A stretch of 64,000 nt of DNA from Minisyncoccota bacterium (GCA_041661795.1 JBAZTS010000004.1:6136-70135), one strand, 5' to 3'; counted from the stretch's first letter, positions 2,092 through 64,000 are shown. The notes: generated by a model not told the origin, from the sequence alone. Translations and numbers: made by a program.

Positions 2092-2143
2092 TTTCTTCTC
2101 TTCTTTTCTCCCGCGATGAGCTCACGGGGGGCTTGTTTTACGT

Positions 2144-2338: not shown

Positions 2339-2403
2339 CTCTATCTCTTTCTCCCGCGATGAGCTCGCGAGTAGCTCTACGTACTGCGTTTATTTATATA
2401 GAA

Positions 2404-23654: not shown

Positions 23655-24576
23655 TGCTATCCCGGTTGACTTTTGTATGGTTCCGTAATAGTATAAAGAC
23701 AGCTCGTTTGAACTCAAAACGTGGAGTCCTGGGGGACACGCGACCGAAAACGGCTTGCGCTCCATCGGTGGCGCTATATAAAATAACCGATTCTGTGTCG
23801 TGTGGGCGAGGAAGTACACCTGCACACGACATGCCGCGGAGGTCGTAATCTCCGCTGGTCCGATTGACGGCACGTGTTGCCGTCGAAATAGTGGCTCTAT
23901 GCTACTGGAAGTTGTTACCACTCTTGTGGTAACGGAGGCGGTACCCACTCCGCTCTCCATTCCAAAAGGGGACGCCAAGCGCTCCCCGTAGGCATCGACG
24001 CCAGAAACAGATACATCGGATCGTGTAACACTTGATCAGTTCGCGTGCCCCCAGGCTCCCGTCAACACAGCACCACCCACCCCGCCCTCGAGGGTGGTTT
24101 CTTTTTATATAACTATATAACTTGACAAAATATTTAATGTATGATAACATGTGCACATGTGCAAACTGCAGATCCCGCACAACGACGGGATTGGTGCACG
24201 AGCACAGCATAGGGCGCAGGGATGAAGACCCTGTCTGCCTAAGCTAAGCTGTGCTCTTACCAAAGCAGGACCGCACGGGTCCAAAAAGAGCCCACCCAGA
24301 GTGGACTCAAGGGAACGAAGGCCTTGCCCGTTAGAGCCCAAATCAACTACAAGGGAACAACTCTGATTGACAATCGCTTTCCATCCCAAACCAAGAAGAG
24401 GATAGGCTTGAAGGTTTAATGTCATCTCAAACTCCTCACATTAGTGTTTACACTAATGTGACACAAAGTTTGACGAAGACAACCTCTCTCAAGCCACCTC
24501 AAAAATTTAAAGGTCGGCTACCTTTTCAAATAGCCACTGCACTCCTCGGTCTCTCTATGAGACCACTCGATCCTAA

Positions 24577-24606
24577 GGGACGCCCCGCGCGTCCCTTTCG
24601 CTTTTT
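24577..24606 (+). terminator. Rho-independent terminator (GGGACGC-CCCGC-GCGTCCC + TTTCGCTTTTT) closing the GC-rich non-coding island
   Basis: Perfect 7-bp GC stem followed by a U-run on the plus strand. Confidence 0.7.
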
Positions 24607-36881: not shown

Positions 36882-36917
36882 GCACGGCTCGGATGTTTCC
36901 ATCCGAGCCGGTAGTGC
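36882..36917. terminator. Hairpin GCACGGCTCGGA-TGTTTCCA-TCCGAGCCGGT, left boundary of the GC-rich/cassette island (a related copy at 42498..42527)
   Basis: Read directly; it follows the minus-strand GC-rich ORF 36944..37372. Confidence 0.6.
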
Positions 36918-36943: not shown

Positions 36944-37372
36944 CTAGAGTTCGTGAGCCCAGGGGGCCCAGATGATCATGGTGGCGTCGTCGATCGTCGG
37001 TTGCTCGTCTGGCGGTCTGGGGGGGATCGCGACGACGACGTTGCCCTCCCTGATGCCCAGTTCGGTAGCGGTTGAATCGAGTTCGGTTCTCAACGACGTC
37101 CAGAAAAAGTCGTTGAGAGTCCGAAACTGACGCCGGTTCCGCTGGATTTTGATGTATGACCGCCTGAAGAAGGAGGCACCACCAAGCGATGCGGTTTCCG
37201 CCGTCAAGCTTTCGATTTCGGCGACGATGAAGCTCATGACCCTCAGGATGGTGGCGAGGTAATCGGGGATTTTACCGATCACCTTCTCACCCTCCTTGAC
37301 GGGGGGAAGCCCGTCGCTCGCCGGGGTTTGTCCGGCCTTTTCCACTAACTCGTCTAACCATGGAATCTGCAT
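36944..37372 (-). CDS. Hypothetical GC-rich protein (142 aa)
   Basis: AAGGAG ribosome-binding site upstream of the ATG. Composition unlike the host backbone. Terminator hairpin downstream. Confidence 0.5.
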   Translation of the reverse strand: MQIPWLDELVEKAGQTPASDGLPPVKEGEKVIGKIPDYLATILRVMSFIVAEIESLTAETASLGGASFFRRSYIKIQRNRRQFRTLNDFFWTSLRTELDSTATELGIREGNVVVAIPPRPPDEQPTIDDATMIIWAPWAHEL

Positions 37373-37441: not shown

Positions 37442-37472
37442 GTGTTTTTTGTTTTGGTGTAGGTGATATAAT
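37442..37472 (+). promoter_or_regulatory. Conserved promoter GTGTTTTTTGTTTTGGTGTAGGTGATATAAT (copy 1 of 3), extended -10 TGnTATAAT, ending 6 nt before the ATG
   Basis: Identical or near-identical copies at 39371..39401 and 40558..40588, each 6-8 nt upstream of a start codon (leaderless-type). Confidence 0.65.
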
Positions 37473-37478
37473 AAAAAC

Positions 37479-37712
37479 ATGAGAAAGGAGCCAAAAAAAC
37501 AAAACATTGTCATCTATCAAACTAAAACCGGAGCAATTGAGCTTCGCGGTGATTATTGCAAAAAAACTATTTGGGCAAATCGTATGCAGATGGCCAAGAT
37601 ATTTGGTGTAAATCCTCAAGCAATTTCTAAACATATTCAAAATATCTATCAAGAAAAAGAGTTACAAAGAAAACCAACTAGTTCCATTTTAGAACTAATT
37701 CAAAATGGATAA
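37479..37712 (+). CDS. RhuM/Fic-associated N-terminal DNA-binding-domain-like protein (77 aa, probably a fragment)
   Basis: 'IVIYQTKTGAIELRGDYCKKTIWANRMQMAKIFGVNPQAISKHIQNIY' resembles the N-terminus of RhuM-family proteins. Confidence 0.5.
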   Translation: MRKEPKKQNIVIYQTKTGAIELRGDYCKKTIWANRMQMAKIFGVNPQAISKHIQNIYQEKELQRKPTSSILELIQNG

Positions 37713-37913: not shown

Positions 37914-37947
37914 AACATCCTTACAAACTCCAGTTTGTAAGGATGTT
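37914..37947. repeat. Perfect palindrome AACATCCTTACAAACTCCAGTTTGTAAGGATGTT (cassette-boundary hairpin)
   Basis: Read directly. It shares the CAAACTCCAGTTTG core with hairpins at 38961 and 39328. Confidence 0.75.
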
Positions 37948-38090: not shown

Positions 38091-38303
38091 ATGAAGATGG
38101 AGAAGATGACCGATCGGAAACTGGGGCGGAAGGCGATGAAAATTCGCCTGATCGCCGAGACCGAGGAGGAGATGTCACTCCTCACCGAGATCACCTCTCA
38201 GTTGTTAGGAAGGTGGCCGGTTCTAGGAGACAAACTGAAGGATGAGAAGGTTTTCCAGCTTGACGTCACTCTCCGCAAGATGTGGTCAGCTGTTCTCGGC
38301 TGA
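38091..38303 (+). CDS. Hypothetical small GC-rich protein (70 aa), first gene of a three-gene GC-rich module
   Basis: AGGAGGA ribosome-binding site. A TTGACTTCT -35-like element upstream, similar to the other GC-rich modules. Confidence 0.45.
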   Translation: MKMEKMTDRKLGRKAMKIRLIAETEEEMSLLTEITSQLLGRWPVLGDKLKDEKVFQLDVTLRKMWSAVLG

Positions 38304-38350
38304 CGCGAAGCGCTTGCTTAACTTGCTGTATGAACTGAAAGGAGACAGAG

Positions 38351-38617
38351 ATGTGCGGACCACAGTTGGGAATCCCGCTCAACGACCAGACCCTCGCTGA
38401 GATGTCCCAGGAGGAGAGGAACTTCTGGCTGGACTTCCTGGAAGAGGCCTCTGATGTCATCGAGAAAATGGCGGATGAAGAGGCCACTCAGCCATTCACT
38501 CCGCCGGCCTCGCTTCTGTCCAAGTACAACATGGCGGTGGCACGCTATGATGGGCGTGCTTACTGCCAGATCCTCCAACTGGAGGAGATCTTCAACTTCC
38601 ACCAGACCCAGACCTAA
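38351..38617 (+). CDS. Hypothetical small acidic GC-rich protein (88 aa)
   Basis: AAGGAG ribosome-binding site 7 nt upstream. Confidence 0.45.
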   Translation: MCGPQLGIPLNDQTLAEMSQEERNFWLDFLEEASDVIEKMADEEATQPFTPPASLLSKYNMAVARYDGRAYCQILQLEEIFNFHQTQT

Positions 38618-38628
38618 CAAGGAAGGAG

Positions 38629-38826
38629 ATGCCGATGTTTTCAAACAAGAAGTGTCCGAAGTGCGAGAAGTCGTACACGATCCTAGCGACCACGATCTAC
38701 AACGTCCAGTGGTGCTTCTCCCACGGAGAAGCACCCGTCTTCCTGGACAGGACGCTCTGTTGTGGAGCACCTGTCGGGAACTTTCGGGGAGGAGACCCCT
38801 CTTCGACGCTGGTGACCAGCACCTGA
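38629..38826 (+). CDS. Small Cys-rich protein (CPKC...YNVQW...RTLCCGAP), paralog of 42236..42424
   Basis: Clear amino-acid similarity to ORF 42236 (KKCPKCEKSYTILATTIYNVQWCFSHGEAPVFLDRTLCCGAPV vs KEKCPKCGQTCGMAITVYNIQWVRENGERPVYLSRTLCCGSPM). Ribosome-binding site present. Confidence 0.6.
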   Translation: MPMFSNKKCPKCEKSYTILATTIYNVQWCFSHGEAPVFLDRTLCCGAPVGNFRGGDPSSTLVTST

Positions 38827-38960
38827 TCAACTCTCCAACTACTTAAGTACAACCAGGGCAGTTTCACTGCCTCGACCGCCGCGGCCAACCCCCGCGGCGG
38901 ATCTTTTTTATAAAGAAATATAATTTTGATTTTCATCGCTAATCTTGGCCTATCTTTTCC

Positions 38961-39000
38961 ACATAACATATCAACAAACTGGAGTTTGTTGATATGTTAT
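38961..39000. repeat. Perfect palindrome CATAACATATCAACAAACTGGAGTTTGTTGATATGTTATG (cassette-boundary hairpin)
   Basis: Read directly. Same stem as 39328..39365, with the loop inverted. Confidence 0.75.
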
Positions 39001-39026
39001 GTGTGGGGATGTATAATATACAGAAT

Positions 39027-39311
39027 ATGGAAAAGCTAAAAACCGCCGAACAAATGGAGAGGCATCTTAAAGGAATGGCCAATCATTACCGGATTGAAAT
39101 TTTACTTCTTTTAGATTCCAGCGACGGCATAACTCTTGACGCTATTATAAAAGCAATGGATGCTGACCCAAGAACAATAGGGGAACACGCTAGACGTCTC
39201 TACAATGCCGGCTTGGTTGATAAAAAATATAGGGGCAGATTTATGGAGTATAAACTCTCTCCCTATGGGAAAAAATTTGTTTCTTTTTTAAAATCTTTTC
39301 AGCGTGTCTAA
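39027..39311 (+). CDS. ArsR/SmtB-family winged-helix transcriptional regulator
   Basis: 'MANHYRIEILLLLDSSDGITLDAIIKAM' HTH_20 pattern. Start chosen at the internal Met after the hairpin. Confidence 0.6.
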   Translation: MEKLKTAEQMERHLKGMANHYRIEILLLLDSSDGITLDAIIKAMDADPRTIGEHARRLYNAGLVDKKYRGRFMEYKLSPYGKKFVSFLKSFQRV

Positions 39312-39327
39312 TTTAAATTCTTTAATT

Positions 39328-39365
39328 ACAACATATCAACAAACTCCAGTTTGTTGATATGTTGT
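39328..39365. repeat. Perfect palindrome ACAACATATCAACAAACTCCAGTTTGTTGATATGTTGT
   Basis: Read directly. Confidence 0.75.
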
Positions 39366-39370
39366 TTTGG

Positions 39371-39401
39371 GTGTTTTTTGTTTTGGTGTAAGTGATATAA
39401 T
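39371..39401 (+). promoter_or_regulatory. Conserved promoter GTGTTTTTTGTTTTGGTGTAAGTGATATAAT (copy 2)
   Basis: One-nt variant of the 37442 and 40558 copies; it ends 8 nt before the GNAT ATG. Confidence 0.65.
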
Positions 39402-39409
39402 TAGTTTAA

Positions 39410-39871
39410 ATGAAAATAAAAATTAGGAAAGCAAAATTAGAGGAGCTAAAAAAGATTGTTAATGTAACCAGTAAAGCATTTGACGATCCGTTTGATCCTA
39501 AGGGCTACATAAGGAAAGACAAAGAGTATTATAAAGATTTAGTAGCGCCGTTTAAAGATAAAAAATTTGGTATTTTTGTTGCGGTCTATAACGATAAAAT
39601 AATAGGAGTTCAGCGATTTGAATTTATAAAAAACAATATAAATCTATTTCGGCTTGGTGTGTTAAAGTCATTTAGAAACAAAGGCGTGGCTCCGGCTTTG
39701 ATAAAAAGAACCGAATCCGAAGGTAAAAAGAAAAACTGCAAGAAGATAACTCTGATGTGTATTGAAGAAAAGGGATTGACTCCTTACTATAAAAAAATTG
39801 GTTTTAGGGTGGATAAGATAAAGAAGCATCGAGATCATCACGATGTTTTTATGTCTAAGTCCATAAACTAA
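39410..39871 (+). CDS. GNAT-family N-acetyltransferase
   Basis: 'IGVQRFEF...FRLGVLKSFRNKGVAPALIKR' acetyl-CoA-binding motif A (R/Q-x-x-G-x-G/A). Confidence 0.7.
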   Translation: MKIKIRKAKLEELKKIVNVTSKAFDDPFDPKGYIRKDKEYYKDLVAPFKDKKFGIFVAVYNDKIIGVQRFEFIKNNINLFRLGVLKSFRNKGVAPALIKRTESEGKKKNCKKITLMCIEEKGLTPYYKKIGFRVDKIKKHRDHHDVFMSKSIN

Positions 39872-39895: not shown

Positions 39896-40038
39896 GAGTG
39901 TTTTTTGGTTTAAGTTGACTTCTGTGATTTATGTGATATAACTATGGCAGAATTGTAGTCAATCGAAGTTTTGCACCAAACTGTCTGTGAACAGAAGGGG
40001 CGGTGTAAAACACTGCTCTTTCACAAGAAAAGGAGAAA
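39896..40038 (+). promoter_or_regulatory. Promoter (TTGACT ... TGTGATATAAC) plus conserved roughly 100-nt 5' leader of GC-rich module 1; homologous to 41903..42033
   Basis: About 75-80% identity to the leader at 41903-42033, including 'AATCGAAGTT(T/C)TGCAC' and 'CTGCTCTTTCACAAGAAAAGG(A/G)GA'. Alternative pairings GTGAACAG/CTGCTCTTTCAC and GAAAGAGC/GCTCTTTC preserve a hairpin. Confidence 0.55.
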
Positions 40039-40411
40039 TATGTCTCAGGCAAAGTGTAGTTCTTGCCAACGCGTTTTCGAACCGTCTGTCTCGTTCGACT
40101 TCTACCCGAAGCCGACTCCGAAGGATCCAGACGCCGGTTTGTGCGAGAGCTGTCTCATGAGAGGGATCTTCCAGGAGACGGCGCGCGACCCGGTCCCGGT
40201 TCCCAACGGACACGAGACGAGCGTCTGCAAGAAGGGACAGGGAGAACTGACCTGTAGCTTTTTGGGTCTCTCTTCCAGGGACGGGCACCTCGTCTACGAG
40301 TGCCTGAAGGGAAGCTCCTTGGAATCGGCCATCAGAGGGCGGCTTCGGGAGGGCTCCATGAAGTCCAAGGGGGACAACTGCTCCGGACCCCCCGACTTCC
40401 GGGCCAACTGA
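40039..40411 (+). CDS. Cys-rich protein (124 aa), apparently a fusion of domains homologous to ORFs 42034 and 42236
   Basis: The N-terminus 'CSSCQRV..YP..P.DPDAGLCESC' resembles 42034 'CDVCCYRR..YPVDP...C'. The C-terminus 'CKKGQGELTCSF..' resembles 42236 'CPKCGQTCGM'. Ribosome-binding site AAGGAG. Confidence 0.5.
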
Positions 40412-40557
40412 CCATCTCTCTCACAAAGCACAACCAGGCAGAACAAAACTGCCACTTGACCGCCACGGCTCACCCCGTGGCGTTCTGCTTTTGTAAAAAT
40501 ATTTTTTGGTTTCTCTTATTTTCTAATTCGTACGAATAGGTAAATAGAAAAATTGGG

Positions 40558-40588
40558 GTGTTTTTTGTTTTGGTGTAGGTGATATAAT
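40558..40588 (+). promoter_or_regulatory. Conserved promoter GTGTTTTTTGTTTTGGTGTAGGTGATATAAT (copy 3)
   Basis: Identical to 37442..37472; it ends 6 nt before the NYN-gene ATG. Confidence 0.65.
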
Positions 40589-40594
40589 ATAAAT

Positions 40595-41095
40595 ATGAGA
40601 ATAGAAGGAAATAATTGTGCCTATATTGATGGAGCTAACTTGCACAATGGTGTTGCCAGCTTAGGTTGGAATCTTGATTATAAAAAATTTAGAGTATGGT
40701 TATCGGAAAAATATTCAATAAAAAACGCCTATATTTTTATAGGACTCATTTCTAAGTACAAAGAACTTTATAAATATTTACAGGAGTGCGGATTTACTCT
40801 TATTTTTAAAGAGGTGATTTATGATGGAAACGGTAAGCCAAAAGGAAATTGTGACGCTGATTTAGTTTTACAATCTACTCGCGATGCTTATGAAAACAAA
40901 TTTGATAGATCAATTATTGTTACAAGCGATGGAGATTACGCTGGATTAGTAAAATTTCTTCAAGAAAAACAAAAGTTATTAGTCATTCTATCTCCCAACA
41001 ATCAGGAAAGGTGCTCGATTCTTCTTAAAAGAACTGGCGTCAAAATAGCTTACATAAATGACCAGCGTTCTATATTGGGGACTTCTGTAAAATAA
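40595..41095 (+). CDS. NYN-domain (LabA-like) putative ribonuclease
   Basis: 'AYIDGANL...D.ADL.L..........SDGDYAGLVKFL' NYN/DUF88 pattern. Confidence 0.65.
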   Translation: MRIEGNNCAYIDGANLHNGVASLGWNLDYKKFRVWLSEKYSIKNAYIFIGLISKYKELYKYLQECGFTLIFKEVIYDGNGKPKGNCDADLVLQSTRDAYENKFDRSIIVTSDGDYAGLVKFLQEKQKLLVILSPNNQERCSILLKRTGVKIAYINDQRSILGTSVK

Positions 41096-41292
41096 AAAAG
41101 CCCCCAACGAAGACAGAACTTCGCAAGGGTCTTTTTCGTAGTGATGTTATATATATATCACACTTGTACAATAAAATCAATCTTCTGTGGATAACTTAAA
41201 AACCAACCTTATTCTTTAAAAAACGCTGTTATATCTTTGACGATATCTTTGGTTGATTATATAATGAACGTAATACTATTAAATAAAATAAA

Positions 41293-41841
41293 ATGGATCC
41301 AGAAAATAATGTAGAAAATATTGTTTCGTCGGTTGGCGGTAAGAAAAAATTAATAATTATTGGAGTTATTGTTCTGGCGGTTATTGTTGTTGGGTATTTG
41401 ATTAATGGTTTTGTCGGCAGAACTGCGGGAGATAAATTGGCCGAAAACATTCTTGAAAATCAACTTGGAGGAAATGTGGATATAGATTCAAGTGACGGTT
41501 CCGTTTCTATAGTAACAGACCAGGGAACTTTTACTTCCGGAGATTCAGCCAAGTGGCCATCGGATATGCCAAGCGATGTTCCAAAATTTACCAAAGGCAA
41601 AATAACGGTAGCCGGGTCTTCTCTGACGGGAGGCACTGGCTGGCAAGTGATGTATGAAGGCGTTAATAAGGGAGATTTTGACGCTTATCACAACACTCTT
41701 AAATCCGCGGGATGGACTGACATCGGAACATTTAGCGCTGATATAAATATTATTCAGATGAGTAAGGGTGAAAATAGTTTGATGATGGCTATTGACGCTC
41801 AAAGCAAAGCATTCACTCTGACGGTTTATACTGGAGAATAA
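41293..41841 (+). CDS. Hypothetical membrane-anchored protein
   Basis: N-terminal TM helix. A strong terminator follows (41851-41882 AAAACAGGGCTCTTGGAGCCCTGTTTTTTTT). Confidence 0.45.
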   Translation: MDPENNVENIVSSVGGKKKLIIIGVIVLAVIVVGYLINGFVGRTAGDKLAENILENQLGGNVDIDSSDGSVSIVTDQGTFTSGDSAKWPSDMPSDVPKFTKGKITVAGSSLTGGTGWQVMYEGVNKGDFDAYHNTLKSAGWTDIGTFSADINIIQMSKGENSLMMAIDAQSKAFTLTVYTGE

Positions 41842-41902
41842 TTTATTGTCTCAAAACAGGGCTCTTGGAGCCCTGTTTTTTTTACATAAAAATGTTTGTT
41901 GT

Positions 41903-42033
41903 TATTTTGACATCTGTGACTTATGTGGTACAACTTGAGCAAGATTGTAATCAATCGAAGTTCTGCACTAAACGCTGTTTATCGAAAGAGCGGTGCGGGA
42001 CTTGCTCTTTCACAAGAAAAGGGAGGAAAGAAA
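41903..42033 (+). promoter_or_regulatory. Promoter (TTGACA ... TGGTACAAC) plus conserved 5' leader of GC-rich module 2
   Basis: Homologous to 39896..40038. Confidence 0.55.
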
Positions 42034-42219
42034 ATGCTTCCAGCATGTGACGTGTGTTGTTACCGAAGAGATATCTGGCGTATTTACCCCGTTGATCCTC
42101 GGAAACAAAAGTTGTCTCACAATCGCTATGCCTGCGATCTTCACAAGAGCGAAGTGATCTCGCGGGTGAAGTCCAGTACTGCGTGGCCCAACTTCGAGGT
42201 GATCGTCGAGAAGATCTGA
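42034..42219 (+). CDS. Small Cys-rich zinc-ribbon-like protein (61 aa)
   Basis: GGGAGG ribosome-binding site; 'CDVCC...C..H' pattern. Homologous to the N-terminal half of 40039..40411. Confidence 0.5.
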   Translation: MLPACDVCCYRRDIWRIYPVDPRKQKLSHNRYACDLHKSEVISRVKSSTAWPNFEVIVEKI

Positions 42220-42235
42220 AGGAAAGGAGAAACAA

Positions 42236-42424
42236 ATGCCGAAGAAGGAGAAGTGTCCCAAGTGCGGGCAAACGTGTGGGATGGCCATCACGGTCTATAA
42301 CATCCAATGGGTGCGTGAGAACGGGGAGCGTCCGGTGTATCTTTCCCGGACGCTCTGCTGCGGCTCACCGATGAGGGGATTCTGGGGAGAGAATTTCCCC
42401 CTGGTGCCGGGATCCAGCCCCTAG
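42236..42424 (+). CDS. Small Cys-rich protein (CPKC...YNIQW...RTLCCGSP), paralog of 38629..38826
   Basis: AAGGAG ribosome-binding site; paralogy as above. Confidence 0.6.
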   Translation: MPKKEKCPKCGQTCGMAITVYNIQWVRENGERPVYLSRTLCCGSPMRGFWGENFPLVPGSSP

Positions 42425-42497: not shown

Positions 42498-42527
42498 AAG
42501 CACGGCTCGGAAAATCCGAGCCGGTGA
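42498..42527. terminator. Hairpin GCACGGCTCGGA-AAA-TCCGAGCCGGTG, right boundary of the GC-rich modules (a related copy at 36882..36917)
   Basis: Read directly. Confidence 0.6.
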
Positions 42528-63650: not shown

Positions 63651-63806
63651 AAAACCCATACTTGACTTTTGTCTTAATATTTGCTATAATCCAAGGACAA
63701 ACTGGAATAAGGTGACATTGGGTCATCTTGTCCAGACGCACATTAACAAGAAGTGAACATGTTGTGGAAGGTTTAGGAACCTTACCGCAACAGAAAGGGA
63801 AAGCTC

Positions 63807-64000
63807 ATGTCCAATCGTGAGACGGCCCAAGCGACACTGGGACAGGTGTGGGAACTGCTGGGGGATATTTTCAAGATCCTCGGCAAAAAGTTCTCAGGCC
63901 TCTCCCTCTCACAGGTCCAGCGGTTGATCAGCAACAAGAAGCAGCTGATCGACAGCTACTGGAAGGTGGCTCTCGATATTCTCGGTGAGGTCGAGGATGT
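63807..64000 (+). CDS. GC-rich hypothetical ORF, 5' part only (runs off the window)
   Basis: ATG 63807 with an AAAGGGAAAG ribosome-binding site. Composition like the other GC-rich modules. Not in the ORF track because it has no stop within the window. Confidence 0.35.
   Translation, partial: MSNRETAQATLGQVWELLGDIFKILGKKFSGLSLSQVQRLISNKKQLIDSYWKVALDILGEVED

What the first reader, a model, noticed from the sequence alone, without database searches (positions are those of the whole stretch)
39896..42424. Conserved promoter plus roughly 100-nt leader shared by two GC-rich modules; candidate cis-regulatory RNA
The segments 39896-40038 and 41903-42033 are homologous at the nucleotide level.

Shared blocks:
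- TTGAC(T/A)TCTGTGA(T/C)TTATGTG(A/G)TA(T/C)AAC.
- GTA(G/A)TCAATCGAAGTT(T/C)TGCAC.
- CTGCTCTTTCACAAGAAAAGG(A/G)GA just before the start codon.

The downstream proteins have diverged, and in one module they are fused. Where the leaders differ, alternative pairings still close a hairpin against GCTCTTTCAC. These are GTGAACAG...CTGCTCTTTCAC in one and GAAAGAGC...GCTCTTTC in the other. That suggests a structured 5' UTR element such as a riboregulator, attenuator or protein-binding site, not neutral sequence.
Basis: seen in the sequence. Interest (0 to 1): 0.7.

Follow-up and report, generated by a model that had tools for sequence, protein, structure and literature searches.

The report
Shared promoter plus bistable mRNA leader
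Two unrelated small-protein gene cassettes in a Paceibacteria (CPR) genome carry the same promoter and roughly 90-nt untranslated leader, whose RNA can fold into two competing hairpins that hide or expose the ribosome-binding site; it looks like a rare new translation-control element, but only three copies could be found, so the evidence is thin.

Summary
The repeat is real. Window 39899-40033 and 41893-42022 share a sigma70-like promoter and a ~90-nt 5' leader (76-81% identity). These are the only two copies in the window, and no Rfam family matches even at E<=10.

One further homologue exists, upstream of the orthologue of the module-1 gene in Candidatus Wolfebacteria GWA1_42_9. There only the ~75-nt leader core is kept, behind an unrelated promoter. 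The core is 81% identical, against 63.5% for the CDS and 52.6% at third codon positions.

Two mutually exclusive helices stay 100% paired in all three variants:
- P2: GUUYUGCACY / GGUGYRRRAC.
- P3: GARRGRGCGGUG / CAC(Y)GCUCUUUC.

Neutral-substitution simulations give P = 0.0005 and 0.015 for that outcome. Seven decoy helices all break. In two of the three variants P2 and P3 are close in energy, and the P2 state lets CUCUUUC pair with the Shine-Dalgarno sequence.

Most likely this is a lineage-restricted structured leader that modulates translation initiation and was copied with its promoter onto a non-homologous operon (promoter/leader reuse). The effector is unknown. Variable interior loops argue against a metabolite aptamer.

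Three sequences cannot give statistically valid covariation.

The parts
39898..39911 (+). T-rich upstream motif GTGTTTTTTGGTTT just 5' of the module-1 -35 box (UP-element position)
   Evidence: GTGTTTTTTGKTTT occurs 6 times in the window, all on the + strand, against 0.46 expected. Its function is inferred.
39915..39942 (+). Module-1 promoter: -35 TTGACT (39915-39920), 16-nt spacer holding the direct repeat TGTGAT-TTA-TGTGAT, extended -10 TGaTATAAC (39934-39942)
   Evidence: Read from the sequence. 24 of 28 positions are identical to module 2. The consensus scanner does not list it because the last -10 base is C. Promoter activity is inferred, not shown.
39950..40039 (+). Module-1 5' leader (~90 nt; the TSS at about 39949 +/- 2 is inferred from the -10 box)
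   Evidence: Non-coding: the upstream in-frame TTG/ATG ORFs lie in different frames relative to the conserved sequence in modules 1 and 2, and in L005 that TTG reading frame no longer runs into the gene's ATG.
39952..39963 (+). P1 small hairpin AUUG-UAGU-CAAU (present in modules 1 and 2 only, absent from the Wolfebacteria copy)
   Evidence: The pre-core region is only 32% identical to L005, so P1 is not part of the conserved core.
39968..40011 (+). P2 long helix: 5' arm GUUUUGCACC (39968-39977) with 3' arm GGUGUAAAAC (40002-40011), enclosing a small variable hairpin
   Evidence: 10 bp, 30/30 cells paired in 3 variants; 1 two-sided and 4 one-sided compatible changes; slid controls 40-60% paired. 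It is the only helix in the mod1 decoy enumeration with no broken pair in the other two variants.
39994..40022 (+). P3 alternative hairpin: GAAGGGGCGGUGU (39994-40006) with ACACUGCUCUUUC (40010-40022). It shares GGUG with the P2 3' arm, so P2 and P3 exclude each other.
   Evidence: It is the RNAalifold consensus. 12 bp, 35/35 cells paired, 5 one-sided changes.
40016..40022 (+). Anti-SD CUCUUUC (free when P2 forms, buried when P3 forms)
   Evidence: It pairs with AAGGAG in the MFE and P2-constrained folds of module 1 and L005. The sequence is invariant, so covariation gives no information.
40030..40035 (+). Shine-Dalgarno AAGGAG, 4 nt before ATG 40040
   Evidence: Sequence. P(unpaired) is 0.21 in the P2 state and 0.64 in the P3 state.
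40040..40411 (+). Module-1 gene g40040, 123 aa. Two Cys-rich domains: CxxC...FDFYP...CExC, then CKxGxGxxTCSFL...GDNCSGPPDF.
   Evidence: 51 homologues, the taxonomically named ones from Patescibacteria. 1074 cluster representatives at E<=1e-3. No hit in Pfam, NCBIfam, PHROG or PADLOC. The AlphaFold model has pLDDT 65 and no fold match.
40412..40495 (+). Module-1 3' UTR with two hairpins and an intrinsic terminator (stem 40461-40482, then a U-run). It is homologous to the 3' UTR of the GC-rich operon at 38824-38908.
   Evidence: one compensatory A-U to G-C change in the terminator stem.
41907..41934 (+). Module-2 promoter: -35 TTGACA (41907-41912), extended -10 TGgTACAAC (41926-41934)
41942..42033 (+). 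Module-2 5' leader: P1 41943-41956; P2 41960-41969 with 41992-42001 (extended by 2 A-U pairs and an inner GCU/AGC stem); P3 41984-41993 with 42002-42011; anti-SD 42005-42011; SD AGGGAGG 42020-42026
   Evidence: In this copy P2 is strongly favoured (ensemble -30.3 against -22.9 kcal/mol).
42034..42219 (+). Module-2 first gene g42034, 61 aa, Cys-rich orphan
   Evidence: No family hits. No similarity to g40040.
42236..42424 (+). Module-2 second gene g42236, 62 aa, CPKC...LCCG protein; paralogue of g38629 (38629-38826)
   Evidence: 50% identity, E = 1e-18. No homologues elsewhere in 5.8 billion proteins apart from the paralogue itself.

Best explanation
The shared block is a sigma70-type promoter followed by a non-coding, structured 5' leader that acts in cis on the mRNA to tune translation initiation.

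The conserved core runs from CGAAG to the Shine-Dalgarno sequence, about 75 nt. It can adopt two mutually exclusive folds:
- State A is the long helix P2 (GUUYUGCACY with GGUGYRRRAC). This leaves the pyrimidine stretch CUCUUUC free to pair with the Shine-Dalgarno sequence, so initiation is inhibited.
- State B is hairpin P3 (GARRGRGCGGUG with CAC(Y)GCUCUUUC). This buries the anti-SD and frees the ribosome-binding site.

P2 is transcribed first, so it should form first. Conversion to P3 needs strand invasion, which some effector could promote or block. The effector could be a protein, temperature, an ion or a small ligand; it is unknown.

The element is restricted to a narrow Paceibacteria/Wolfebacteria lineage. 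It has been copied, promoter included, in front of a second, non-homologous operon of small Cys-rich proteins in this genome (promoter/leader reuse), which would place both under the same control.

Shown:
- homology between the copies;
- absence of a shared reading frame;
- conservation above that of the CDS;
- preservation of both helices;
- in-silico bistability and SD occlusion in two of three copies.

Inferred:
- the transcription start;
- that the RNA switches in vivo;
- the direction of regulation;
- the effector.
For: 1. The repeat is real and not due to chance.
2. A third variant lies upstream of the g40040 orthologue in Wolfebacteria GWA1_42_9 and in three JGI metagenome contigs. Homology starts at the leader core. 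The region between the -10 box and the core is only 32% identical and the promoter is different.
3. Core identity between module 1 and Wolfebacteria is 58/72 (81%), against 63.5% for the CDS and 52.6% at third codon positions. Binomial P = 8e-7 against the third-position rate and 1e-3 against the whole-CDS rate.
4. P2 and P3 were each predicted from module 1 alone and are 100% paired in all three variants. P2 has 6 variable columns, including U-A / U-G / C-G at one pair. P3 has 5 pairs with a compatible one-sided change. Slid-register controls give 40-63% paired.
5. I simulated the same number of substitutions with the same transition/transversion split, placed at random. Both helices stay intact in 0.05% of runs (module 1 to module 2) and 1.5% (module 1 to Wolfebacteria).
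6. Of the nine helices of at least 6 bp in the module-1 leader, P2 is fully kept and P3 loses only its loop-closing 13th pair. The seven others lose 1-4 pairs in each of the other two variants.
7. 12 of the 65 paired cells are G-U. The pairing therefore works only for the sense RNA, not for the antisense strand or a DNA palindrome.
8. The P2 and P3 states are close in energy in module 1 (-25.4 / -24.9 kcal/mol) and within 3.3 kcal/mol in the Wolfebacteria copy. P(SD unpaired) is 0.21-0.25 in the P2 state and 0.64-0.77 in the P3 state.
9. No Rfam family matches at the gathering threshold or at E<=10.
Against: - Only three distinct sequences exist, in two genomes. There is a single two-sided compensatory pair, and the shuffle control is not significant (316/500). 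R-scape-type statistics are impossible.
- Some substitutions are shared by module 2 and the Wolfebacteria copy, so the two simulation P-values are not independent.
- Module 2 does not behave as a switch in silico. P2 is 7-8 kcal/mol more stable than P3, and SD accessibility is about 0.5 in the P2 state against 0.33 in P3.
- The anti-SD:SD helix is invariant in sequence, so nothing beyond energy calculations supports it.
- Eight other g40040-family loci whose upstream sequence I read have short, unrelated leaders, so the gene does not need this element.
- The g40040 proteins behind the two conserved leaders are no closer to each other (59%) than to homologues that lack the leader (54-59%). The leader may therefore have spread recently by recombination, and part of its conservation may reflect recency rather than selection.
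- There are no transcript data, so the TSS is inferred.
Confidence: 0.5

Rival explanations
1. Plain promoter/5'-UTR reuse (a 'putative mobile promoter'). The block was copied by recombination onto a second operon and exchanged between related genomes. It is conserved mainly because the copies are young and because it carries a good promoter and RBS. The hairpins are generic (for example 5' mRNA stabilisers) or incidental, with no switch and no effector.
For: - The pair meets the published definition: more than 50 nt at 80% identity or better upstream of non-homologous CDSs, with non-homologous upstream neighbours (PMC3488235).
- Promoter reuse is common in this island. Promoter D2 occurs 3 times on unrelated AT-rich genes, and a 3' UTR/terminator is shared by two other modules.
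- The distribution of the leader does not follow the protein phylogeny.
- Module 2 is locked in P2.
Against: - At 76-81% identity the copies are not young. There are 14 and 9 substitutions in the core, and none breaks either of the two overlapping helices (P = 0.0005 and 0.015), whereas all decoy helices break.
- In the Wolfebacteria copy the promoter was replaced but the leader core was kept. This is the opposite of what promoter-driven conservation predicts.
Confidence: 0.25
2. A metabolite- or ion-binding riboswitch of a new class. P2 and its interior form the aptamer, and P3 with the anti-SD forms the expression platform. It would control small Cys-rich (probably metal-binding) proteins.
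For: - There is a two-state expression platform with SD occlusion.
- The same leader sits on two non-homologous Cys-rich operons, a regulon-like pattern.
- No known family matches.
- Single-stranded CGAAG, AAAC and GA are invariant around P2.
Against: - The interior of P2, where a ligand pocket would lie, is the least conserved part. Module 2 has indels and a differently built inner stem.
- Real aptamers conserve their core more than their helices.
- The regulated proteins have no known function, so no ligand can be proposed.
- Only three copies exist.
Confidence: 0.1
3. A DNA-level operator. The conserved block downstream of the promoter, or the TGTGAT-TTA-TGTGAT repeat in the spacer, is the binding site of a transcription factor, and the RNA folds are irrelevant.
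For: - A conserved direct repeat lies between -35 and -10 in both window copies.
- The inverted repeats of P3 have a short 3-5 nt spacer, as in a palindromic operator.
- A MarR/ArsR-like HTH gene lies about 1 kb upstream.
Against: - 12 of the 65 helix cells are G-U pairs, and substitutions interconvert A-U, G-U and G-C. This keeps RNA pairing but degrades a DNA palindrome.
- The conserved region spans about 75 nt, far more than an operator.
- The Wolfebacteria copy keeps the transcribed core but not the promoter or spacer repeat.
Confidence: 0.05
4. A transcription attenuator or leader-peptide control element.
For: Alternative hairpins in a leader are the classic attenuator layout.
Against: - No U-tract follows P3 or P2; the sequence after P3 is ACAAGAAAAGG. 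The terminator scan finds nothing in either leader.
- There is no conserved upstream ORF. The in-frame TTG/ATG ORFs lie in different frames in modules 1 and 2, and the corresponding frame no longer reads into the gene's ATG in L005.
Confidence: 0.03
5. Modules 1 and 2 are diverged duplicates of one whole cassette, and the 123-aa protein corresponds to the 61-aa and 62-aa proteins fused or split.
For: - 61 + 62 = 123 aa.
- In the wider family the N- and C-terminal domains do occur alone, fused and permuted.
- There are loose motif resemblances, seen by eye only: CxxC...YPxDP...C, and CxKxGQ..TC...C[CS]G[SP]P..F.
Against: - There is no BLASTP alignment.
- hhalign with the 27-sequence profile gives probability 0.1% for g42034 and 7-10% for g42236, aligning only a CxxC knuckle of the wrong (N-terminal) domain.
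- No nucleotide similarity exists beyond the leader.
Confidence: 0.07

Closest known systems
Putative mobile promoters / promoter propagation (Matus-Garcia, Nijveen & van Passel 2012, PMC3488235; PMC3575422)
   Same: Homologous upstream regions of at least 50 nt and at least 80% identity sit in front of non-homologous genes in one genome, and the element is shared between genomes. That paper notes that riboswitches and other RNA elements are among such families.
   Different: Here the promoter itself is dispensable: it is replaced in the Wolfebacteria copy. The part that is kept is the transcribed, structured core. No IS, MITE or other vehicle is visible.
Shine-Dalgarno-sequestering expression platforms of translational riboswitches
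   Same: Mutually exclusive helices, with an anti-SD / anti-anti-SD logic. The 5' helix is transcribed first.
   Different: There is no conserved aptamer core, no known ligand and no match to any Rfam family. The interior of the 5' helix varies among the three copies.
RNA thermometers (fourU, ROSE-like)
   Same: A short U-rich stretch (CUCUUU) can pair with AAGGAG in a weak 6-bp helix close to the start codon.
   Different: The anti-SD is additionally competed for by a 12-bp hairpin (P3), which itself competes with a 10-bp helix (P2). This three-partner layout is more elaborate than known thermometers. Temperature response was not tested.
Protein-titrated mRNA leaders (ribosomal-protein leaders, CsrA-type control)
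   Same: A lineage-restricted structured leader overlapping the RBS, which could be locked in one fold by a bound protein. The downstream products are small zinc-ribbon-like proteins, a class that often binds nucleic acids.
   Different: The two operons encode unrelated first proteins, so simple autoregulation cannot explain both. No canonical GGA-loop motifs are present. No binding protein is known.
Phage 'morons' (autonomous promoter-gene-terminator units of deviant base composition)
   Same: Each GC-rich module has its own promoter, leader and terminator in an AT-rich neighbourhood. The g40040 family also occurs on viral contigs.
   Different: The modules sit in a bacterial chromosome region with no recognisable prophage structural genes. 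The promoter context (T-rich upstream motif) is host-like.

Membership tests
Any described RNA family (Rfam 15: riboswitches, leaders, thermometers, sRNAs) | Covariance-model score at or above the family's gathering threshold | tested here: not met
   The whole window at gathering thresholds gives only tmRNA and tRNAs. The 201-nt regions around both leaders at E<=10 give only noise: eukaryotic lncRNA, snoRNA and miRNA models at 7-18 bits against cut-offs of 43-72.
Putative mobile promoter (PMC3488235) | Upstream regions align over more than 50 nt with at least 80% identity | tested here: met
   72-nt ungapped repeat at 81%. 81% mean column identity in MAFFT.
Putative mobile promoter (PMC3488235) | Downstream CDSs and upstream CDSs do not align | tested here: met
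   Downstream: no BLASTP or hhalign similarity. Flanks: blastn of the 929-nt contig covering 39560-40488 hits the window only at the leader of module 2. Module-against-module blastn gives the same result.
Metabolite/ion riboswitch | A conserved ligand-binding core (unpaired nucleotides and junctions more conserved than the helices) | tested here: inconclusive
   The interior of P2 differs in sequence, length and pairing between module 2 and the other two. This leans against membership, but three sequences are too few to decide.
Metabolite/ion riboswitch | Expression platform with mutually exclusive pairings that control the SD or a terminator | tested here: met
   P2 and P3 share GGUG. The P2 state occludes the SD in 2 of 3 copies in silico. 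This is a thermodynamic prediction only.
Metabolite/ion riboswitch | Specific ligand binding that changes the fold | not testable with these tools
   Needs in-line probing, ITC or SHAPE.
RNA thermometer (fourU/ROSE type) | SD paired in a weak helix that melts with temperature | tested here: inconclusive
   A CUCUUU:AAGGAG helix is predicted in module 1 and L005. Temperature dependence was not tested.
Intrinsic-terminator attenuator | GC-rich leader hairpin followed by a U-tract, with an alternative antiterminator | tested here: not met
   No U-tract follows P2 or P3. The terminator scan reports nothing between the promoters and the start codons.
Leader-peptide attenuation | Conserved short ORF with its own RBS in the leader | tested here: not met
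   Candidate upstream ORFs are in different frames in modules 1 and 2, and the frame no longer reads into the gene's ATG in L005.
Phage moron | Autonomous promoter-gene-terminator unit with base composition unlike its surroundings | tested here: met
   Promoter, leader and terminator are delimited. GC is 0.60 against 0.30-0.35 in the flanks.
Phage moron | Located within a (pro)phage genome | tested here: not met
   No phage structural or replication genes lie at 35.5-45.3 kb. Relatives of the gene do occur on viral contigs.

The most novel reading that the evidence does not exclude
The leader is a new class of effector-responsive riboregulator, a ligand-, metal- or protein-sensing switch. It would be specific to Paceibacteria/Wolfebacteria, travel as a portable promoter-leader cassette, and place unrelated phage-related small zinc-ribbon proteins under one signal. 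That would make it one of very few dedicated RNA regulators known in CPR bacteria.
Probability: 0.12. Interest if true: 0.65.

Novelty: new member of a known kind. Interest (0 to 1): 0.35.

Why it matters
CPR/Patescibacteria have tiny genomes, few recognisable regulators and very few known cis-regulatory RNAs. A structured leader that is kept while its promoter and its downstream gene are exchanged would show that these organisms move regulatory RNA modules between genes.

It would also give an experimental handle on a widespread, entirely uncharacterised small Cys-rich protein family. That family has more than 1000 cluster representatives, also occurs on phage contigs, and has no Pfam entry.

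As the evidence stands, this is a plausible but thinly sampled candidate. It is worth adding to a covariance-model search of CPR MAGs, and not yet worth a dedicated wet-lab effort.

Tried and rejected
- Exact-pattern scans of IMG/VR with the two best blocks gave one hit each. Both are chance matches inside unrelated coding sequence. The three-block pattern found nothing there.
- The single metagenome scan with GAAGTTNTGCAC-N(15-35)-GCGGTG-N(4-14)-CTCTTTC re-found only sequences identical to module 2 or to the Wolfebacteria copy.
- I looked for leader variants through the gene. Contigs of eight g40040 homologues were read, and only P0004 (Wolfebacteria) carries the leader.
- A GTDB-wide protein scan gave 16 loci and four viral loci. 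Covariance model R1 found nothing new in 176 kb + 53 kb of loci, nor in the window with filters off.
- GenBank phages have no DNA or protein match.
- Homologues of the module-2 proteins do not exist in the 5.8-billion-protein set apart from the in-window paralogue.
- I tried to find the function of g40040. There are no Pfam, NCBIfam, PHROG or PADLOC hits, the AlphaFold model has only pLDDT 65, and Foldseek against the PDB gives nothing below E = 1. The afdb50 library was unavailable.
- Rejected: a coding N-terminal extension (frames differ), an attenuator (no U-tract), and an antisense partner in the window (both-strand searches find only the two sense copies).


Full report
**What is there**

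The window is part of a 102.7-kb contig of a MAG named Candidatus Paceibacterota bacterium (CPR/Patescibacteria). Its GC content is 37.6%.

Between 36.8 and 43.9 kb lies a mosaic of very small transcription units. Some are AT-rich: an HTH protein, a MarR/ArsR-like protein, a GNAT, a NYN domain protein, DUF1059 and a pterin dehydratase. Others are strikingly GC-rich at 0.50-0.60.

- Module 1 is a promoter, a leader, one 123-aa Cys-rich ORF (40040-40411) and a terminator.
- Module 2 is a promoter, a leader, two ORFs of 61 and 62 aa (42034-42219 and 42236-42424) and a hairpin.

**The observation**

The two upstream segments are homologous:
- MAFFT gives 81% column identity.
- There is a 72-nt ungapped repeat at 81%.
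- blastn gives 76-78% over about 135 nt, 39899-40033 against 41893-42022.

Chance expectation is 0.00-0.05. A covariance model run with filters off also finds only these two copies.

The block begins with -35 TTGACW, a 16-nt spacer and an extended -10 TGnTAYAAC. It ends at the Shine-Dalgarno sequence. The inferred leader is about 90 nt. Nothing else in the two modules is similar at the DNA level.

**The proteins**

The claim that the downstream proteins are diverged copies, fused in one module, fails every test I could apply. BLASTP finds nothing. A 27-sequence profile of the module-1 family aligns only a CxxC knuckle, with probability of 10% or less.

The module-1 protein belongs to a real family:
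- 51 homologues were found; the few that carry an organism name are from Patescibacteria, and the GTDB-wide scan placed relatives in Wolfebacteria, Saccharibacteria, Taylorbacteria and other Patescibacteria MAGs.
- There are 1074 cluster representatives at E<=1e-3.
- It has two Cys-rich domains that also occur separately.
- It is absent from Pfam, NCBIfam, PHROGs and PADLOC.
- It has no fold match.
- It also occurs on four IMG/VR viral contigs. On one of them it sits between a sliding-clamp gene and the large terminase.

The module-2 proteins are orphans. The exception is that g42236 has a paralogue, g38629, in a third GC-rich operon of the window.

**More copies of the leader**

I looked through the gene and through the DNA.
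- Of the g40040-family loci whose upstream sequence I read, only one carries the leader: Candidatus Wolfebacteria GWA1_42_9 (L005/L022). Identical copies occur in three JGI metagenome contigs.
- There the promoter is different, and the first ~20 nt of the leader are unrelated (32% identity). From CGAAG to the SD the sequence is 81% identical to module 1 (58/72).
- The CDS behind it is only 63.5% identical at the nucleotide level, and 52.6% at third codon positions. The binomial P is 8e-7 against the third-position rate.

The family therefore has three distinct members in two genomes.

**Not coding, not a known RNA**

Upstream in-frame ORFs exist in modules 1 and 2, but they lie in different frames relative to the conserved sequence. 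The corresponding frame does not read into the gene's ATG in the Wolfebacteria copy.

Rfam 15 gives no hit at gathering thresholds, and only noise at E<=10 on 201-nt slices.

**Structure**

Folding module 1 alone gives two competing structures:
- P2 is a 10-bp long-range helix: GUUUUGCACC at 39968-39977 with GGUGUAAAAC at 40002-40011.
- P3 is a 13-bp hairpin: GAAGGGGCGGUGU at 39994-40006 with ACACUGCUCUUUC at 40010-40022.

They share GGUG and so cannot coexist. P3 is the RNAalifold consensus.

Across the three variants:
- P2 is paired in 30/30 cells. It has one two-sided change (U-A / U-G / C-G) and four one-sided compatible changes.
- P3 is paired in 35/35 cells, with five one-sided changes.
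- Sliding the 3' partner by 1-3 columns drops pairing to 40-63%.

I then simulated neutral change. The observed number of substitutions, with the observed transition/transversion split, was placed at random in the module-1 core. Both helices stayed intact in 0.05% of runs for module 2 and 1.5% for the Wolfebacteria copy.

As an internal control I listed every helix of at least 6 bp in the module-1 leader. There are nine. P2 survives intact, P3 loses only its terminal loop-closing pair, and the seven others lose 1-4 pairs in each other variant.

Twelve of the 65 paired cells are G-U. The pairing therefore exists only in the sense RNA. This argues against a DNA palindrome or an antisense transcript.

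The limits are plain. Three sequences are too few, some substitutions are shared between variants, and the column-shuffle control is not significant.

**How it may work**

With P2 enforced, CUCUUUC (40016-40022) pairs with AAGGAG (40030-40035). With P3 enforced, that stretch is buried.
- P(SD unpaired) is 0.21 against 0.64 in module 1, and 0.25 against 0.77 in the Wolfebacteria copy.
- The two states differ by only 0.5 and 3.3 kcal/mol of ensemble energy.

This is the anti-SD / anti-anti-SD logic of translational riboswitch platforms. No U-tract follows either hairpin, so transcription attenuation is excluded.

Module 2 departs from the pattern. P2 is extended and 7-8 kcal/mol more stable than P3, so this copy would be locked, or would need a stronger push.

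The interior of P2 is the least conserved part and is built differently in module 2. A metabolite aptamer is therefore not the favoured reading. A protein, temperature or ions are equally possible. The effector cannot be named from sequence.

**Evolutionary reading**

The pair meets the published definition of a putative mobile promoter (PMC3488235). The island shows other reuse of regulatory ends:
- a second promoter occurs three times on unrelated genes;
- a 3' UTR with its terminator is shared by module 1 and the operon at 38.0-38.9 kb, with a compensatory change in the stem.

The proteins behind the two g40040-linked leaders are no closer to each other than to leaderless homologues. The leader therefore seems to move independently of the gene. 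Part of its conservation could reflect recency. However, the pattern of substitutions, and the retention of the core after the promoter was replaced, point to selection on the RNA.

**Verdict**

The structured-leader interpretation is plausible and partly supported. The protein-fusion story is not supported.

The element is best filed as a new, very rare member of a known kind: an SD-controlling structured 5' UTR spread by promoter/leader reuse. I put confidence at about 0.5 that it regulates translation through the P2/P3 alternative, and about 0.25 that it is merely a reused promoter and UTR. Interest is moderate to low until more members or transcript data exist.

Noticed in passing
window 23668-24105 and 24121-24606 (+ strand): Two adjacent GC-rich (~0.5) segments, each with its own sigma70-like promoter and intrinsic terminator. 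Neither has a convincing ORF, and there is no Rfam hit even at E<=1. Both fold far better than shuffles: 401 nt, -174 kcal/mol, z = -6.6; and 449 nt, -173 kcal/mol, z = -9.2. They are candidate large structured ncRNAs of unknown family and are possibly more interesting than the finding itself.
   Followed up: partly
window 40409-40495 vs 38824-38908: The 3' UTR and terminator of module 1 are homologous to those of the GC-rich three-gene operon at 38091-38826. Both have two hairpins, and there is an A-U to G-C compensatory change in the terminator stem. That operon's last gene is the paralogue of module 2's second gene. The GC-rich modules are therefore mosaics that share 5' or 3' regulatory ends.
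   Followed up: partly
window 37442-37498, 39371-39427, 40558-40614; also 19266, 36092, 39898: A second reused promoter, GTGTTTTTTGTTTTGGTGTAGGTGATATAAT, occurs three times in front of unrelated AT-rich genes (an HTH protein, a GNAT, a NYN protein). Its T-rich head GTGTTTTTTGKTTT occurs 6 times on the + strand against 0.46 expected, including just upstream of the module-1 -35 box.
   Followed up: partly
window 36883-36912 and 42500-42526: Near-identical hairpin AGCACGGCTCGGA...TCCGAGCCGGT. At 36.9 kb it is the minus-strand terminator of the GC-rich gene 36944-37372. At 42.5 kb it has no gene to terminate and looks like an orphan remnant next to module 2.
   Followed up: partly
window 37914-37947, 38965-38998, 39330-39363: A 34-nt perfect palindrome, AACATATCAACAAACTSSAGTTTGTTGATATGTT, in three copies. 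Two of them bracket the MarR/ArsR-like gene 38994-39311, and one overlaps its promoter (TTGATA-17-TATAAT at 38989-39017). It could be an operator or a bidirectional terminator.
   Followed up: no
window 2097-2133 and 2340-2376 (minus-strand genes at about 1810-2090 and 2150-2338): Another GC-rich island holds two tandem small membrane-protein ORFs on the minus strand. Each is preceded by the same 29-nt hairpin-plus-SD element (TTTCTCCCGCGATGAGCTCRCG on the + strand, 86% identical). This is a second case of a duplicated structured leader in this genome.
   Followed up: no
window 40040-40411 and loci L005, L009, L013-L017, L022-L042: The g40040 family is a widespread, unannotated small Cys-rich protein family. 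It has 1074 representatives at E<=1e-3 and an invariant GDNCSGPPDF motif, and its N- and C-terminal domains occur alone, fused and permuted. Genes of the family are GC-richer than their host contig in all six loci measured, markedly so (by 0.10-0.18) in four of them. The family occurs on viral contigs, once between a sliding-clamp gene and TerL. In this MAG the JGI gene call is truncated to 84 aa and no NCBI accession is listed for the 123-aa product.
   Followed up: partly
window 63660-63807: A further GC-rich gene at the window edge (ATG 63808) has its own promoter (TTGACT-17-TATAAT) and a leader of about 110-115 nt unrelated to the one studied. Long leaders on GC-rich modules seem to be a recurring feature of this genome.
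   Followed up: no
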